Virus record (IMG/VR): IMGVR_UViG_2534681912_000004
Origin: a virus
Lineage: Duplodnaviria > Heunggongvirae > Uroviricota > Caudoviricetes
DNA: 7,188 bases
Strand: one strand, 5' to 3'
The position numbers and the translations under genes are program-made. Each line of letters opens with the position of its first letter. Positions within the stretch are counted from its first letter, which is position 1. Shown here one piece after another: positions 897 to 7,188 of this stretch. Under the pieces are notes generated by a model. The model did not search any database. It had not been told where the DNA came from and saw only the letters and a list, made by a program, of their open reading frames with translations.

Positions 897-3800
897 TCAG
901 CTGATACTGATGCCTGCGGTGGCTTTCTTCATCACCACAACCAGCAAATCGCTGATACTTGCTGTGGGATACCAGTCATTTACCAGCCATGCTGACACCG
1001 AAAACTCCAGCGTCATGTGACCGTGACCGGCAGGCATATCAATAACGCCACTGTAAATCAGCGTATTATCCAGCGCGGTACGGTTATAAATTTCAGCACC
1101 GTTTTTCCGCACTATCAGACGGCATGAGGAGTAAATATCAGTATGCTCTCTCTCATGTTTAGCGCCGCTGAATGCCACCGCCGGAATAACAATCTGCCGG
1201 TCAAACGGCTGATCGTCATAAATCCTGACGGTAATGGTCCCTGATGGCCACCGTTCCGGTGCACGGGAGTCCCGGGGGAAAGCTTTGCCCACTGTTTTAA
1301 CGAGATCGCCTTCAATCTGGTTCGCGGACAGTTTTCCCAGAACCCGGCAGTTCTCGTTAATCGTGACGTTGTTGAGCGTCCCGGAGTTCGCATTCACGTT
1401 ACCGCTGATATCGGCATTTTTCGCCGTCAGCCGCCCGTCCGGTGTCAGGGAAAATGCCGGAGGATTACCGCCGCTGGTAATGGTGGGAGCCGTCAGATAT
1501 TTCAGGAACACTTCATTCATAAATATCTGATCGCCCTGACCAACAAACATCGGCTTTGTGTTGCCATTCGCAGGATTAACCATCGCAATCCTGTCCGCCG
1601 CCAGCAGCACCTGACTCTGCATGCCGTCAGGGGTGTTCTCAATACCGGCACCAATACCCGCGATATAAAGGCGTCCGTCCTGCATCTGCTGCAGCTTCAC
1701 AGCCCACATGCTGTTCAGGTTATTATTTGTATCAACCTGAACCTTCTGTATCTGCTGGATCGCTGCACTCTGGTCTTCCAGTTTCTTATTGACGGTCTGC
1801 GTGATTTCATTACTGACATCCGTGATGGACGTTCTGATTTCCGCCAGGTCAGGCGCAAGCTGACCGTTATCAATCTGCGTCCACAACTCCTGAGCCAGAT
1901 GGGTTTTCCCTATCTCTCCTTTGAAAAAATCCAGATAGCCGGATGCATCATCACTCGGCTGGCCAACAGCCTCCACGAATGCCGATTTGCCAACGGTGTT
2001 CACACTGCGGATGTAAAAATAATAATCATGGCCCGGCTTGATATTGATACTGGCAGCTATCCAGTACAGCGCCGTGCCAAGATAGCGGGCTGTGGTTTCA
2101 ACCTGCCTGATATCCGCAATCCGCTTTTCCGAGAACCAGAACTCAAACTGTACCGTCGGATCATAAACGGCAAGATACGGCGTGGCGGTTATCTGAAAAT
2201 AGCCCGGCGTCAGCTCAATCCGCGACGGCGCTGCCGGTGCGGCAATCCGGAACGATACCGATGCCGGATCGCCCTGCTGCCCCCAGGCATTTGCCGCCCG
2301 GACTGTCAGCCTGTAGTTTCCCAGCGCCAGTTGCGTGAAGCGGTATGTGGTTTCCGTCGTCCTGGCCGTGCTGACCAGCCGCTCACTGCCGTCATCCGCT
2401 GCCACGGTCAGACGAAGCATAAAGCTCACGCCCTTCACCACCTTCGGCGTGTCCCATCGCGCCAGCACCTGATATTCCCCGCTGTCTGCGGTGACTTCGG
2501 CGGTCAGGTGCTGCACCGCTGGCGGCGTGACACCATTCACCGTGCCGCTCTGGTCGCCGTCAAAGTGCGCCCCGTTATCCACGATGGCCTCTTTCTCCGG
2601 CACATGCTGCACGGCGGTGATGGCATACGTGCCGTCGTCGTTCTCACGGATACTCACGCAGCGGAACAGTCGCTGGCGCAGCGTCGGCAGCTTCAGCCCC
2701 CATACGCTGTATTCAGCAACACCGCCAGGAACACGGCTCACTTTTACCTTCACGCCGTCGGTGACGGACTGAACCTCCACGCTGACCGGACTCCCCTGCC
2801 CGTCAACCAGGCTTATCAGCGTGATGCCGGAGGATGGCAGCGTGATTTCACGGTCGAGCGTCAGCGTCCGCGTCTGGCTGTTCACCGCCAGCACCCCCCC
2901 GCCGATGCTGATACCCGCATAGTCATCATCACAGATTTCAATGACATCGCCCGGTACATGGCGAAGCCCTTCGGCACCCACGCTGAAGTCCACGGTCTGC
3001 GTTTCCAGCAGCTCCGTTTTAATCAGCCACAGCCCGGCGCGGTGTGCCTGCCCCCGGCTGGTACAGCCAAAGGCATCCATCTTCGTGACGTTACGACCGT
3101 AACGGGCAATGGCCTGCGTATCCTCAACAAGCTCTGTCGCCGTCTCCCAGCCGTTATCCGGGTCAATCCAGTTCACCTCAACGGCATTATGGCGGTCCTT
3201 CAGGGCGCTGAAGCTGTAGCGGAACGGCGCGCCATCATCCGGCATCACCACATTACTGCGGTTATAGGTCCACACCTTATCCGACGGTCGGTCCTGCACG
3301 AACGTCAGCGTCTGCCCGTTCCATACCGGCATACAGCGCATCGCCGAGCAGAAATCACTGAGCACATCCCACGCCTTGCGCTGTGTGGTCAGGTACGCAT
3401 TACAGGTGATGCGCGGCTCCGTGCCGCCAAAGCCGTCCGGCACTGACTGGTCGCAGTACTGGCCGATGACATACAGCGCCCATTTGTCCACATCCGCCGC
3501 ACCAAGACGTTTCCCCATGCCGTAGCGTGGATGGGTCAGCATATCCCACAGACACCAGGCCATGTTATTGCTGTATGCTGGCTTAAACGTTCCGTCCCAG
3601 ATACCGCTGTATTGCCGAGTCTGCGGGTTATAGTTCGACGGCACCTGCAGAATACGCCCGCGCAGATGATAATTACGGCTCACCTGCTGGCTGCCGAACT
3701 GCTCCGAATCCACCTGTACGCCGACCAGTGCCGTGTTCGGGTAGCACTGTTTCACATCGATGATTTCGGTGTATGACGACCAGAGCGTTTTGTTCTGCAG

Positions 3801-4376
3801 CTGGTCTGTGGTGCTGTCCGGCGTCATCCTGCGCATCCGGATATTGAACGGACGCGGCGGCAGGTCACCCACCACCACCGATGCCAGATACTGTGAGGTG
3901 GTTTTGCCTTTAATGGTGATGTCTTTTTCCGTCACCCAGCCACCATTACGCTGTATCTGAACCAGCAGGCGGACTTCCGACGGATTCCGGTCCCCCTTTG
4001 AGGTGGTTTCCACCAGTGCCTGCACACCGAAGGTAAAGCGCAGACGGTCGATGTTTGCCGACGTGATGGTCCGGGTAATCGGCGTGTCGTACTTCACTTC
4101 CGTACCCAGCACCGTCTCGGAGCCGGAGGATTCAAATCCCTCCGGCGGTGTCTGCTCCTGCTCACCGGCCCGGAACACCACCGTGACGCCGGATATATTG
4201 GTATTCCCCTCACTGTCCAGCACCGGCGTACTGTTCAGCAGCACGCTTTTTAATCCATCCACCGGACCTTCAACCGGCCCTTCGCTGATGGCATCAATCA
4301 CACTCAGCAGCTGCGTGGACTTCAGGTTGTCCTTCGCTTCGCGCGGGGTATGCCCCTTACTGCTGCCTTTACCCAT
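897..4376 (-). CDS. J: Tail tip central fibre / host specificity protein J (1159 aa)
   Basis: Single 3480-nt ORF. N-terminus [34 protein letters not shown]... and long internal stretches match lambda gpJ as I recall it (about 1132 aa). ATG at 4376 preceded by GGAG. Position between I and lom is syntenic with lambda. The C-terminal third differs in composition (see findings). Confidence 0.95.
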
Positions 4377-4436: not shown

Positions 4437-5078
4437 TCAGCGACCAATCACCACAACCTGACCACCATCACCTTCATCTGCCGTGCTGATCTCCTGAGAA
4501 ACCACACGTGACCCCACGCGCATTTCACCGTACAGAACCGGCAGAACATTGCCCTGGGCAACCATGTTATCCAGTGAAGAAAAATAGGTGTTCTGTTTGC
4601 CGTTATCCGTTGTCTGTGTGCGGGGGGTTTTGGGTTTAGGGGCCAGCATCTGTGCAACACCGCCAAGCGTCATACTGGCACCGAGAGAAAACAGCAGATT
4701 ACTCGCCATAATTCCTACCCCCGGCATCCATATAGCAACCGCCATAACAGCCGCCCCCAGCACAGCCTGAAACACACCGCCACTTTTGGCTCCTGCCAGA
4801 CGCGGCACGATATGGATCACGGCACCATTTGCCAGCGGCTCATTAAGACGGGCAGACAATTCGGTTTCACCTGCATCACGCCCGGCAATGCGTACCTGGT
4901 ACCAGCCGTCGCTCAGTTTCTGACGAAATGCCGGGATCTGCATGGCCAGCGCCCGGATGGCTTCGGACCCCGTTTTCACTCGAAGGTCGATGCGGCGGCC
5001 AAATCGTTGTAAATCCCCGTAAAGGCAGATGCGTGCCATGCCCGGTGACGCCAGAGGGAGTGTGTGCGTCGCTGCCAT
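4437..5078 (-). CDS. I: Tail tip assembly protein I (213 aa): N-terminal ubiquitin-like domain plus hydrophobic segment
   Basis: ORF translation MAATHTLPLASPGMARICLYGDLQRFGRRIDLRVKTG... and C-terminus ...NTYFSSLDNMVAQGNVLPVLYGEMRVGSRVVSQEISTADEGDGGQVVVIGR match lambda gpI as I recall it. Start is 103 nt inside the 3' end of K in another frame, which I recall is also the lambda arrangement. RBS-like GAGAGAGG upstream, with a rather long spacer of about 11 nt. Confidence 0.9.
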   Translation of the reverse strand: MAATHTLPLASPGMARICLYGDLQRFGRRIDLRVKTGSEAIRALAMQIPAFRQKLSDGWYQVRIAGRDAGETELSARLNEPLANGAVIHIVPRLAGAKSGGVFQAVLGAAVMAVAIWMPGVGIMASNLLFSLGASMTLGGVAQMLAPKPKTPRTQTTDNGKQNTYFSSLDNMVAQGNVLPVLYGEMRVGSRVVSQEISTADEGDGGQVVVIGR

Positions 5079-5719
5079 TTGTCGGTGTACCTCTCTCGTT
5101 TGCTCAGTTGTTCAGGAATATGGTGCAGCAGCTCGCTGTCACCACAGTAAATGGCGGCATGATTCGGCACCGATGAACCAAAACAGCACAGCAGCACATC
5201 GCCCGGCTGCGCCGCTGACAACGGCACCTGATACAGCCCTGTGGCCTCCAGATTATCCAGATAGAGATTCTGACCGTTACGCCACCAGTCATCCCCGCGA
5301 TGAAAATCCGGCATCTCAATTCCCGCCAGATGGTAAGCGTCCCGGAACAGCGTGTAACAGTCCGTTACCCCGTGCTCAAAGCGCCGCCCGGTGAGATGCG
5401 GCACACAGCGGAATTTATGAATCGCCCCCCGGCAGACCAGCCACCACGGCAAATCACTCTGTACCTGCAGCCGCCGGTCGGCCTCACTCAGCCAGGGCAG
5501 ACCACCGGGGTGGCTGTGGACCAGCGCCACAATCTCTCCCTGCATTTCTGCACTCAGCCAGTCCTCCGGCGACATCCGGAAATACTCCTCCGGCTCACCG
5601 GAGATATTCACGCAGGGAAAATATCTTTCCTCCTCCGGCGTTCTCACCACGAAGCCGCACGACTCCGCTGGCGCACATCGCCGGGCGTGCGCCAGAATCG
5701 CTGATTCTGTCTCTGTCAT
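4976..5719 (-). CDS. K: Tail tip assembly protein K (JAMM/MPN metalloprotease-like domain plus NlpC/P60-like domain). Longest ORF is 247 aa; alternative internal start at 5575 would give 199 aa
   Basis: Translation contains an exact JAMM motif HSHPGGLPWLSEAD (H-x-H-x7-S-x2-D) and an NlpC/P60-like Cys-His region (GVTDCYTLF ... NHAAIYCGD ... LLHH). Position between L and I is syntenic with lambda. The start at 5719 lies 5 nt after the L stop but has no obvious SD. The internal ATG at 5575 has a strong GGAGGAG SD 9 nt upstream. Confidence 0.85.
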   Translation of the reverse strand: MTETESAILAHARRCAPAESCGFVVRTPEEERYFPCVNISGEPEEYFRMSPEDWLSAEMQGEIVALVHSHPGGLPWLSEADRRLQVQSDLPWWLVCRGAIHKFRCVPHLTGRRFEHGVTDCYTLFRDAYHLAGIEMPDFHRGDDWWRNGQNLYLDNLEATGLYQVPLSAAQPGDVLLCCFGSSVPNHAAIYCGDSELLHHIPEQLSKRERYTDKWQRRTHSLWRHRAWHASAFTGIYNDLAAASTFE

Positions 5720-5724
5720 GGGAT

Positions 5725-6423
5725 TTACTGCGAAAGTTTGTTAATGGAAAGGAAGCTGCCAAAGTTGCCGACATTATTGCGAAACTTACAGCCACTCAGG
5801 CATTTGCTGCATTTATCCTTCGTGATATCGGACGTCGGCTGGTCATATTCATCCGCGACCGCCGGACCGTGATAACCGCACTCATCGCCGCGATAGGTCC
5901 AGGTGCAGGTGTTGGCCAGCATGATACGTCCCGGAAAAACAGCGCCATCCGTTTCAGTCGGCGTGGACAGTACAAAAGAGGCACTGACCGCGCTCAGTTC
6001 GCTGCACTGCTCGATGCGCCAGCGGCTGATCACCTCCTGCTCCGGATCGGCTTCGCTGTTTCCGTTGACGAAGTTCACCGCATCCAGAAAGCGGGCGTAA
6101 ACCTTACGCCGGACCACCGTTCCGCCGACCAGACTCTGCAGATCTTCCGCCATCCCGGTGATCATGCCGTGCAGGTTAGAGACCGCCAGTGTCGGACGGG
6201 CAGCACTGCCCTTGCCGTTCATCTCAAATCCACTCCCCTGAATGGGATAGGCCTGATACTGCCGACTCTGCCAGGTGACAGACTCACCTTTTTCGTTCTG
6301 CTCATTACAGAAAAAGTAGCGATCCCCGCCTACCTCGGTCAGGTCGATTTCCCAGAGCACCACGCTGGCCGACTGCTCCGCACGAATGCATTCATTCAGC
6401 GTTTCCTGTTGTATGTCCTGCAT
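5725..6423 (-). CDS. L: Minor tail / tail tip protein L (232 aa) with C-terminal cysteine cluster
   Basis: Translation MQDIQQETLNECIRAEQSASVVLWEIDLTEVGG... through ...CSKCLSGCKFRNNVGNFGSFLSINKLSQ is near-identical to lambda gpL as I recall it. Its ATG overlaps the M stop (TGATG at 6425-6421). Confidence 0.95.
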   Translation of the reverse strand: MQDIQQETLNECIRAEQSASVVLWEIDLTEVGGDRYFFCNEQNEKGESVTWQSRQYQAYPIQGSGFEMNGKGSAARPTLAVSNLHGMITGMAEDLQSLVGGTVVRRKVYARFLDAVNFVNGNSEADPEQEVISRWRIEQCSELSAVSASFVLSTPTETDGAVFPGRIMLANTCTWTYRGDECGYHGPAVADEYDQPTSDITKDKCSKCLSGCKFRNNVGNFGSFLSINKLSQ

Positions 6424-6761
6424 CAGATCACCACTTCGTCAAACTGACACGAAAAATCGGTATAGGTGATATGTTCTGTCGCTGACCACGTTCGACACAC
6501 CACTCTGATTTTTCTGTTAATACCCGGCGGGCGCCAAAAAAAAGATTTATAGCCTTCATGCCGGGCTAAAAATTTTTCAAATGAATCACGTTCATTCGCC
6601 TCAACTTTGAAATCACAGGTGAAAACGCGCAGAGAATGATTAAGTCCATTTGGACTTCGTTGCTCATAACCATCGCCAAATCTTACAGTTTTTATCGATG
6701 GTTTATTTTCTGTTTTCATTCCATCCTCTGGTAACCAGTGAAATTCTTCCGTATTAGCCAC
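6423..6761 (-). CDS. M: Minor tail protein M (112 aa, GTG start)
   Basis: ORF with conserved core TVRFGDGYEQRSPNGLN...KSFFWRPP...FDEVVI resembling lambda gpM (KVRFGDGYSQRAPAGLN...KSFLWTPP...FEQVVN, from memory). The N-terminal F-x-W...PEDGM aligns with lambda F-R-W...KPGM, supporting the GTG at 6761. Alternative ATG at 6719 (Met15). Stop overlaps the L start. Confidence 0.85.
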   Translation of the reverse strand: MANTEEFHWLPEDGMKTENKPSIKTVRFGDGYEQRSPNGLNHSLRVFTCDFKVEANERDSFEKFLARHEGYKSFFWRPPGINRKIRVVCRTWSATEHITYTDFSCQFDEVVI

Positions 6762-7095
6762 TTAACATTCCCCCATCACGTCGCATATTTAACAGATTGC
6801 CCTGCACCCGCTGATCAACCATCCCCATAAGTGCTTTTATTGCCTGAGGGCCAATCTCTCCATTCTGGCCGTCATTTTGAATAGTGATTTGGTATACAGG
6901 GGCATAGGTAATATCTCCGCCTCCATTACCACTTTTACTATTAACAGCTCTGACACCAAGAGAACCATCGGAAGTTCGTGTTAATGGCATAATGGCTTCC
7001 GGACCAGCCTCACCAAAAACACCAGCCCCTCTTGCAAAAGCAAAAAATTGCGGGGAATCATAAATTGAACCGCCCCGGGTTTCCTGGAGAGTATT
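6754..7095 (-). CDS. H: Tail tape measure protein H, C-terminal segment (114 codons open; frame blocked upstream by in-frame TAA at 7098-7096 and TGA at 7110-7108)
   Basis: Translation ...GGSIYDSPQFFAFARGAGVFGEAGPEAIMPLTRTSDGSLGVRAVN...ITIQNDGQNGEIGPQAIKALMGMVDQRVQGNLLNMRRDGGMLSG resembles the C-terminal end of lambda gpH (...VVINNDGTNGQIGPAALKAV...MRDGGLFSGGGR, from memory) and the widespread FxxGG...GExGPEAI tape-measure motif. The ORF track reports only the last 78 aa from an internal ATG at 6990. Stop TAA at 6756-6754 overlaps the M start region by 8 nt. Confidence 0.7.
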   Translation of the reverse strand, partial: NTLQETRGGSIYDSPQFFAFARGAGVFGEAGPEAIMPLTRTSDGSLGVRAVNSKSGNGGGDITYAPVYQITIQNDGQNGEIGPQAIKALMGMVDQRVQGNLLNMRRDGGMLSG

Positions 7096-7188
7096 TTATC
7101 TGTGAACTCAGGCTGCCAGATCATCGTTTCCGATGGAAGCATAATAAGCTTTTTCTGCTTCTGCCGGAGGAGTATGGCCCAGCCTTTC

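What the first reader, a model, noticed from the sequence alone, without database searches (positions are those of the whole stretch)
4437..5719. Ubiquitin-like / JAMM / NlpC-P60 triad in the I-K pair
K combines an exact JAMM metalloprotease motif (deubiquitinase-like) with an NlpC/P60 papain-like Cys-His domain (DCYTL...H...HH). The overlapping downstream gene I encodes a small N-terminal domain ending in ...IHIVPRLAGAKSGG (Gly-Gly at about residues 100-101), followed by a hydrophobic stretch (VFQAVLGAAVMAVAIWMPGVGIMASNLLFSLGASMTLGGVAQMLAP). This matches the published proposal that lambda I is a ubiquitin-like protein processed or conjugated by K. Despite being in every lambda-like tail, the biochemistry is still poorly characterised, so this locus is a tractable example of a prokaryotic ubiquitin-like system.
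Basis: partly seen in the sequence, partly recalled or inferred. Interest (0 to 1): 0.4.

Follow-up and report, generated by a model that had tools for sequence, protein, structure and literature searches.

The report
Lambda tail-tip K–I processing pair
These are the ordinary tail-tip assembly genes K and I of a lambda-like prophage: K is a double peptidase and I is a tail-plug protein with a removable ubiquitin-like cap, an arrangement proposed in 2006 and recently reported to be confirmed experimentally.

The parts
4976..5719 (-). Gene K homologue, 247 aa: tail tip assembly protein with an N-terminal JAB/MPN+ metalloprotease domain and a C-terminal NlpC/P60 cysteine peptidase domain
   Evidence: ORF. 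Pfam Prok-JAB residues 4-98 and NLPC_P60 residues 111-224. phrog_30 'minor tail protein' E=2e-162. 96.5% identical to lambda K over the 199 annotated residues.
5426..5710 (-). JAB (JAMM/MPN+) domain of K, residues 4-98. Catalytic Glu19 is at 5663-5665 and H68-S-H70-x7-S78-x2-D81 at 5477-5518.
5048..5389 (-). NlpC/P60 (C40) domain of K, residues 111-224. Cys121 is at 5357-5359, His187 at 5159-5161 and His199-His200 at 5120-5125.
4437..5078 (-). Gene I homologue, 213 aa from Met1, or 200 aa if translation starts at Met14 (ATG 5037-5039). Tail tip 'plug' protein precursor.
   Evidence: ORF. Pfam Lambda_tail_I residues 14-97. 84% identical to lambda gpI. Matches PDB chains 8iyk_I, 8iyl, 8k35, 8xcg and 9e7m.
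4788..5042 (-). Ubiquitin-like beta-grasp domain of I, residues 13-97
4776..4793 (-). Linker G96-A-K-S-G100-G101, the probable scissile region between the ubiquitin-like domain and the retained part of I
   Evidence: G96 is kept in 79/82, G101 in 67/82 and G100 in 39/82. hhalign places G96-A97 on the MoaD G80-G81 C-terminus (weak). This is the lowest-pLDDT segment between the two ordered parts.
4638..4775 (-). Two hydrophobic helices (H1 about 100-117, H2 about 123-145), residues 102-147
   Evidence: Kyte-Doolittle means up to 1.78. AF2 helices. In lambda these helices are predicted transmembrane and vanish on tube opening (PMC11101478). In the F-pyocin homologue the N-terminal helices of the visible part encircle the tape-measure C-terminus.
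4440..4637 (-). C-terminal plug/insertion domain of I, residues 148-213. This part is resolved inside the tail tip lumen of lambda.
   Evidence: 63/66 residues identical to lambda gpI. Lambda residues 135-223 form a trimeric tripod bound to gpJ by beta-sheet augmentation (PMC10721106). PDB 9e7m chains hold only this part.
4976..5078 (-). K/I overlap, 103 nt, with I in the -1 frame relative to K. It encodes a K C-terminal tail found in the lambda, ES18 and Stoker lineages.
   Evidence: Other phages overlap by only 4-26 nt or not at all. No slippery heptamer was seen. Database K-I fusion proteins have different junctions.
5725..6423 (-). Context: gene L homologue (hub protein)
   Evidence: Pfam Phage_tail_L E=2.4e-97
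897..4376 (-). Context: gene J homologue (central tail fibre), the protein that the I plug domain binds
   Evidence: Pfam Phage-tail_3, FNIII-A_GpJ, Ig_J and Ig_GpJ_C

Best explanation
This is the K-I pair of a lambda-type siphophage tail-tip assembly module, in an E. coli prophage. I is made as a three-part precursor. Its parts are an N-terminal ThiS/MoaD/SAMP-like beta-grasp domain (about residues 13-97), two hydrophobic helices (about 100-145) and a C-terminal insertion domain (148-213). The C-terminal part is built into the tail tip as a trimer. There it plugs the lumen, binds J and holds the C-terminus of the tape measure protein. K is an assembly enzyme that is not kept in the particle. 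Its JAB (JAMM) zinc-metalloprotease domain acts like a deubiquitinase. It recognises the ubiquitin-like domain of I and cuts the linker after it, in the G96-G101 segment and most probably at or next to G96. The cut happens only once I sits in the growing tip complex. Removal of the cap acts as a checkpoint that allows the next assembly steps (tape measure and tube docking). Shown here: gene identities, motifs, folds, conservation and gene order. Taken from the literature: presence of I's C-terminal part in virions, absence of K, loss of the N-terminal domain in a homologous tailocin, and the reported cleavage by gpK. Inferred: the exact scissile bond, and that the JAB domain rather than the NlpC/P60 domain does the cutting. 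The NlpC/P60 domain is clearly an active enzyme, but its substrate is not known.
Against: The direct experimental claim reached me only as a one-paragraph conference summary. No paper or preprint with data was found. The F-pyocin authors say the protease is unidentified. They also found that the N-terminal region is lost to unknown host proteases when the protein is expressed alone in E. coli. My tethered K-I model gave no sign that the Ubl tail docks on K: linker residues 311-313 had pLDDT <50, pTM was 0.54, and no coordinates were available to inspect. Neither candidate glycine is universal. ES18 lacks the G101 equivalent and Klebsiella phage Roth44 lacks the G96 equivalent (sequence printed). 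This window's prophage has an IS-disrupted tape measure gene, so here the genes may not currently serve a working tail.
Confidence: 0.85

Rival explanations
1. The N-terminal ubiquitin-like domain of I is never removed. It stays attached in the particle and is merely too flexible to be seen by cryo-EM, and K has another job.
For: The cryo-EM papers on lambda describe it only as an 'unresolved' N-terminal domain. One even speculates that it could be the missing cell-wall hydrolase.
Against: F-pyocin mass spectrometry finds the N-terminal region in stalled precursors but not in mature particles. The only gpI peptide reported from lambda virions is the C-terminal one, although the N-terminal domain has several good tryptic peptides. 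The conference report describes cleavage. The domain is a beta-grasp, not a hydrolase fold.
Confidence: 0.05
2. The ubiquitin-like domain is removed, but by the NlpC/P60 cysteine peptidase domain of K or by a host protease. The JAB domain would serve only to bind the ubiquitin-like domain, or would have another substrate.
For: The NlpC/P60 triad is as strictly conserved as the JAMM site. Papain-fold enzymes include most eukaryotic deubiquitinases, and Iyer et al. raised this possibility. PA0640 expressed alone in E. coli loses its N-terminal region to unknown host proteases.
Against: The JAB catalytic residues, not only binding surfaces, are invariant. JAB's nearest structural relatives are Ubl-specific isopeptidases, whereas the NlpC/P60 domain's nearest relatives are peptidoglycan DL-endopeptidases. 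The conference report attributes the cut to gpK and highlights its deubiquitinating domain.
Confidence: 0.1
3. K's JAB domain is mainly a counter-defence deubiquitinase. It would strip host Bil-type ubiquitin-like modifiers from the central tail fibre J.
Against: JAB is present and catalytically intact in every K examined, always beside an I gene with its own ubiquitin-like domain. That fits a housekeeping assembly role. A Dhillonvirus (SECphi4) is sensitive to Bil, although a Dhillonvirus K has an intact JAB. There are no PADLOC matches.
Confidence: 0.04
4. K is a cell-wall hydrolase used at infection. Its NlpC/P60 domain would cut peptidoglycan, and the K-I pairing would be incidental.
For: The NlpC/P60 domain is closest to CwlO, LytE and MepS, and to hydrolases built into other tail machines: the diffocin hub-hydrolase and the phi812 baseplate protein. 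The lambda enzyme that opens the cell wall is unidentified.
Against: K was not detected in lambda virions or in F-pyocin particles, so it cannot act at the next infection. K mutants are blocked in tail-tip assembly, not entry: the F-pyocin deletion gives tip-less tubes.
Confidence: 0.05
5. A true conjugation system: the ubiquitin-like domain of I, once released, is attached covalently to another protein.
For: The fold is that of SAMP/Urm1-type modifiers, with a conserved glycine at the domain's end.
Against: No E1- or E2-like domain occurs in the module or in the ten related loci. K has only peptidase domains. No report of a conjugate was found in the papers read.
Confidence: 0.01

Closest known systems
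Bacteriophage lambda gpK / gpI (tail tip assembly proteins K and I)
   Same: Same genes in the same order (M-L-K-I-J-lom). K is 96.5% identical over the 199 residues annotated in lambda and I is 84% identical. The 103-nt K/I overlap is the same. The I C-terminal plug domain is 63/66 identical.
   Different: The hydrophobic linker of I is 10 residues shorter and more divergent (34/50 identical). The prophage here has an IS element in its tape measure gene.
F-type pyocin PA0639 / PA0640 (tailocin tip maturation factor and tip plug protein)
   Same: Same architecture: a JAB+NlpC/P60 protein directly upstream of a Ubl-helices-plug protein. Only the C-terminal part is seen in the particle, and the N-terminal region is removed on maturation.
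   Different: The sequences are distant: PA0640 is not caught by Pfam Lambda_tail_I at E<=0.01. It is a tailocin, not a phage. The genes do not overlap.
Archaeal/bacterial JAMM-Ubl pairs (PfJAMM1-SAMP2, HvJAMM1-SAMP, Mec+-CysO, QbsD-QbsE)
   Same: A small JAMM metalloprotease acts on a ThiS/MoaD-type beta-grasp protein at the glycine that ends the fold. These are the best structural matches for both partners.
   Different: In those systems the Ubl is a sulphur carrier or conjugated modifier with E1 partners (established knowledge of these systems). Here the Ubl is the disposable N-terminal cap of a structural protein, with no E1, and the JAMM is fused to an NlpC/P60 peptidase.
Bil and CBASS (BilC, Cap3) bacterial deubiquitinase-like JAB proteins
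   Different: Those are host defence components with E1/E2 partners. K and I match no PADLOC model and are phage structural-module genes.
Phage T5 pb3 plug domain
   Same: A trimeric plug closing the tail tip lumen at the same position as the gpI tripod (PMC10721106).
   Different: In T5 the plug is an insertion within the hub protein itself, with no separate I-type protein and no K-type peptidase described.

Membership tests
Lambda-type tail tip assembly pair K/I | Sequence membership of both proteins in the K and I families | tested here: met
   Pfam Lambda_tail_I E=1.5e-23; Prok-JAB + NLPC_P60. phrog_30 and phrog_32. 84-96% identity to lambda gpI/gpK.
Lambda-type tail tip assembly pair K/I | Position in the module: tape measure, M, L, K, I, J | tested here: met
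   ORFs and Pfam for M, L, K, I, J and lom. The same order is found in 10 diverse phages.
Lambda-type tail tip assembly pair K/I | C-terminal part of I built into the tip; K absent from the particle | not testable with these tools
   Known for lambda from cryo-EM and MS and for F-pyocin. Inferred for this prophage from 63/66 identity in the plug domain.
JAMM/MPN+ metalloproteases (Prok-JAB, PF14464) | Catalytic motif E ... H-x-H-x7-S-x2-D | tested here: met
   E19, H68, H70, S78 and D81, invariant or 85/86 in diverse K proteins.
JAMM/MPN+ metalloproteases (Prok-JAB, PF14464) | MPN fold | tested here: met
JAMM/MPN+ metalloproteases (Prok-JAB, PF14464) | Zinc-dependent (iso)peptidase activity on a Ubl C-terminus | not testable with these tools
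   Reported for gpK on gpI only in a conference summary.
NlpC/P60 (MEROPS C40) cysteine peptidases | Cys-His-His/polar catalytic triad in a papain-like fold | tested here: met
NlpC/P60 (MEROPS C40) cysteine peptidases | Peptidoglycan (gamma-D-Glu-mDAP) endopeptidase activity | not testable with these tools
   No data for K in the papers read. The substrate is unknown.
ThiS/MoaD/SAMP/Urm1-type ubiquitin-like beta-grasp proteins | Beta-grasp fold | tested here: met
ThiS/MoaD/SAMP/Urm1-type ubiquitin-like beta-grasp proteins | Gly-Gly (or Gly) at the free C-terminus of the fold | tested here: inconclusive
It is internal, so a free end would exist only after cleavage. The G100-G101 pair is not conserved as a pair.
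ThiS/MoaD/SAMP/Urm1-type ubiquitin-like beta-grasp proteins | Partner E1-like adenylating enzyme (ThiF/MoeB/UbaA) | tested here: not met
   None among the window's ORFs or in the annotated neighbours of ten related loci. So this is not a sulphur-carrier or conjugation system, although the fold is the same.
Bacterial ubiquitin-like conjugation defence systems (Bil, CBASS Cap2/Cap3) | E1/E2 enzymes with a Ubl and a JAB deubiquitinase in one host operon | tested here: not met
   No E1/E2, no PADLOC hit for K or I, and the genes lie in a phage tail module.

The most novel reading that the evidence does not exclude
The strictly conserved NlpC/P60 active site of K has its own, still unknown substrate, distinct from the JAB-Ubl cut. 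Its nearest structural relatives are peptidoglycan DL-endopeptidases, yet K is absent from particles. One possibility is a second maturation cleavage in the tail. The protease that converts the tape measure protein gpH to gpH* is unidentified according to PMC12617516. Another is removal of host-attached modifiers from the tail fibre.
Probability: 0.15. Interest if true: 0.55.

Novelty: already known. Interest (0 to 1): 0.2.

Why it matters
The K-I pair shows a ubiquitin-like domain and a deubiquitinase-type protease used as a one-shot assembly checkpoint in a virus. That is of interest for the prokaryotic origins of ubiquitin signalling and for engineering phage tails and tailocins. But the idea dates from 2006 and the key experiment has reportedly been done on lambda itself, and this window adds only another copy of the genes. 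The practical value here lies in annotation. K should be 247 aa with a complete JAB domain. I should start at Met1 or Met14, not at the 190-aa GTG start. The conserved glycine is G96.

Tried and rejected
- **Programmed -1 frameshift making a K-I fusion.** I lies in the -1 frame of K across a 103-nt overlap. I rejected this reading. No X XXY YYZ heptamer was visible in the overlap. The K-I fusion proteins in the databases are singletons that switch frame at different positions, as indels or assembly errors would. Other phages overlap by only 4-26 nt or not at all.
- **Tethered pseudo-complex.** I predicted the natural fusion P0159 (K 1-219 + I) to see whether the Ubl tail docks on JAB. The domains were confident, but the linker stayed at low confidence and no coordinates or PAE could be inspected, so the test was uninformative.
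- A larger mixed alignment misaligned the NlpC/P60 part and was discarded.
- **Locus retrieval.** The search for related loci with two diverse I alignments found no stretch conserved enough to search with. I used tblastn on annotated phages instead.
- **Profile search against PDB sequences.** The I profile did not reach MoaD or SAMP.
- **Literature.** No paper or preprint with the gpK-gpI cleavage data was found.
- **Not done.** K proteins lacking JAB were not sampled systematically. All 120 best hits and all 10 loci had both domains, but Iyer et al. report NlpC-only versions in some prophages.

Full report
**What is in the window.** All substantial genes lie on the minus strand and form a lambda-type tail-tip module.
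- The C-terminal remnant of a tape measure gene is at 6754 to about 7066.
- M is at 6423-6761 (Phage_min_tail).
- L is at 5725-6423 (Phage_tail_L, E=2.4e-97).
- K is at 4976-5719.
- I is at 4437-5078.
- J is at 897-4376, with six gpJ-specific Pfam domains.
- lom is at 230-829.

The K-I stretch is 99.7% identical to Escherichia phage PhiR49_1, where the genes are annotated as tail tip assembly proteins K and I. The coordinates given in the finding run exactly from the stop of I to the start of K.

**Check of the observation.** Every element is present. K (247 aa) has Glu19 in ESCG and the JAMM motif H68-S-H70-x7-S78-x2-D81 (window 5477-5518). It also has the NlpC/P60 residues Cys121 (DCYTL), His187 and His199-His200. 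Pfam places Prok-JAB at residues 4-98 (E=4e-14) and NLPC_P60 at 111-224 (E=5.4e-12). I (213 aa) matches Lambda_tail_I at residues 14-97 (E=1.5e-23). It contains ...IHIVPRLAGAKSGG with G100-G101, then the hydrophobic stretch 102-147. K and I overlap by 103 nt, as in lambda.

**Are the K active sites real?**
- In ten phages from different genera, the gene upstream of I always has both Pfam domains. These are HK97, a T1-like phage, Pseudomonas D14Q, Burkholderia E174, Vibrio NF, Serratia Stoker, ES18, Cyrano, Klebsiella Roth44 and a Dhillonvirus. All catalytic residues align.
- In 85 further K proteins found with a profile (26-45% identical to this K, median 30%), E19, H68, H70, D81, C121, H187, H199 and H200 are invariant. 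S78 is kept in 85 of 86.
- Both domains are therefore under selection as enzymes.

**What is already known.**
They found the ubiquitin-like domain in tail assembly protein I and the JAB plus NlpC/P60 domains in K. They proposed that JAB releases the ubiquitin-like domain by cutting at its C-terminal glycine (PMC1779556). At that time I was thought not to be in the tail.
- Cryo-EM has since shown that the C-terminal part of gpI is a trimeric plug in the tip lumen. It is modelled as residues 135-223, 134-222 or 'from position 101 onward'. [quoted passage not shown]
- In the lambda virion mass-spectrometry table gpI has one peptide and 9.87% coverage. By my calculation this can only be the C-terminal tryptic peptide 202-223.
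[quoted passage not shown] Deleting the gpK homologue gives tip-less tubes, and the protease is unidentified.
- I fetched that locus. Its K homologue has Prok-JAB and NLPC_P60 with all motifs intact.
- A report of an October 2025 conference states that A. [quoted passage not shown] I found no paper with the data.

**Most likely mechanism.** I is a precursor. Its ubiquitin-like cap is recognised and removed by K's JAB domain once I is in the J-I-L complex. This frees the hydrophobic helices and plug to receive the tape measure protein and permits the later steps. K then leaves. Gene identity, folds, conservation and linkage are shown here. Particle composition and cleavage come from the literature. 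The exact bond and the division of labour between K's two domains are inferred.

1. The 'Gly-Gly' is not the conserved feature. Across 82 diverse I proteins P92 is kept in 81, G96 in 79, G108 in 79, G101 in 67 and G100 in only 39.
   - A profile alignment puts G96-A97 on the C-terminal G80-G81 of E. coli MoaD.
   - G100-G101 are predicted to start helix H1.
   - Lambda gpI is said to be modelled from residue 101, which a cut after G101 would not allow.
   - ES18 has the G96 equivalent but no G101. Klebsiella phage Roth44 has the reverse. So the site cannot be fixed from sequence. I favour G96/A97.
2. Nothing supports conjugation. There is no E1/E2 in this or ten related modules, and no match to defence-system models.
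3. The system is no longer poorly characterised.

**Rivals.**
- The cap might stay attached and merely be flexible. This is contradicted by the mass-spectrometry data.
- The NlpC/P60 domain or a host protease might make the cut. This is possible and needs separate active-site mutants.
- JAB might be a counter-defence enzyme against Bil. That is unlikely as its main role, given its universal pairing with I and the Bil sensitivity of a Dhillonvirus whose relatives have an intact JAB.
- K might be an infection-stage cell-wall hydrolase. That does not fit its absence from particles.
- The open question is what the NlpC/P60 domain does.

**Overlap and start codons.** I is in the -1 frame of K, but I saw no slippery heptamer. 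Database K-I fusions have scattered junctions, so programmed frameshifting is not supported. The long overlap exists because lambda-like, ES18 and Stoker K proteins carry a C-terminal tail of about 20 residues. Three I starts are in circulation.
- Met1 has a GAGAGAGG sequence 11 nt upstream.
- Met14 is used by PGAP and aligns with residues 1-3 of more than 40 diverse homologues.
- A GTG at Val34 gives a 190-aa protein. It would delete the first two strands of the beta-grasp and is very probably wrong.

**Verdict.** Interest is low.

Noticed in passing
window 7067-7188 (and tape-measure remnant 6754 to about 7066, minus strand): The window's right end is the terminus of an IS3-family element (IS1203/IS629-like; inverted repeat TGAACCGCCCCGGGTTTCCTGGAGAG starts at 7067) inserted in the tape measure gene. 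Only the C-terminal part of that gene remains here, and the upstream frame runs into stops. E. coli chromosomes show tape-measure pseudogene halves flanking an IS1203 transposase. So the window comes from a disrupted, probably tail-defective prophage, although K and I are intact.
   Followed up: yes
L011 (lambda NC_001416) about 14,255-14,275, compared with window about 5575-5590: The lambda reference sequence (J02459/NC_001416) lacks one base in K relative to this window and to independently sequenced lambdas (KT232076, LC730321, PV340536, lambda hybrids, DE3, HK629/630). The first 44 codons of K, including the JAMM Glu, therefore fall in another frame and K is annotated as 199 aa. PV340536.1 annotates 247 aa. 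This probably explains why a 2020 review saw only one peptidase domain in gpK.
   Followed up: yes
window 4977-5078 (start of I): Three different start codons for I are used in public annotations: Met1 (213/223 aa), Met14 (200 aa) and GTG at Val34, overlapping K's TGA stop (190 aa). The 190-aa version removes strands 1-2 of the confidently predicted beta-grasp. Most diverse homologues begin at the Met14 equivalent.
   Followed up: partly
window about 6250-7000 and about 6375-6445: GC content drops from about 57% to 42-45% across M and the tape-measure end. Most lambda-like phages stop matching the window near 6375-6445. This points to a mosaic recombination joint near the L/M boundary, and M here is a divergent allele.
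   Followed up: no
window 4437-5719 compared with the PHROGs library: Two PHROG families have profiles that span K and I together (phrog_28576 with 399 positions, phrog_35166 with 322). I residues 82-199 also match positions 157-276 of the central tail fibre family phrog_31. So K-I, JAB-I and I-J fusions may exist as recurrent forms, as Iyer et al. noted. I did not check whether these families are real fusions or mis-called genes.
   Followed up: no
P0358: A 2783-aa representative protein matches the N-terminal part of I in 20 separate stretches (best stretch I 10-45). It may be a protein with many tandem copies of a Ubl-like segment, or a repetitive artefact. It was not examined.
   Followed up: no
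L001 (HK97) 2167-2489: In HK97, K and I are separated by a 321-nt gap that contains an annotated terminator. Almost all other phages examined have K and I overlapping or abutting.
   Followed up: no
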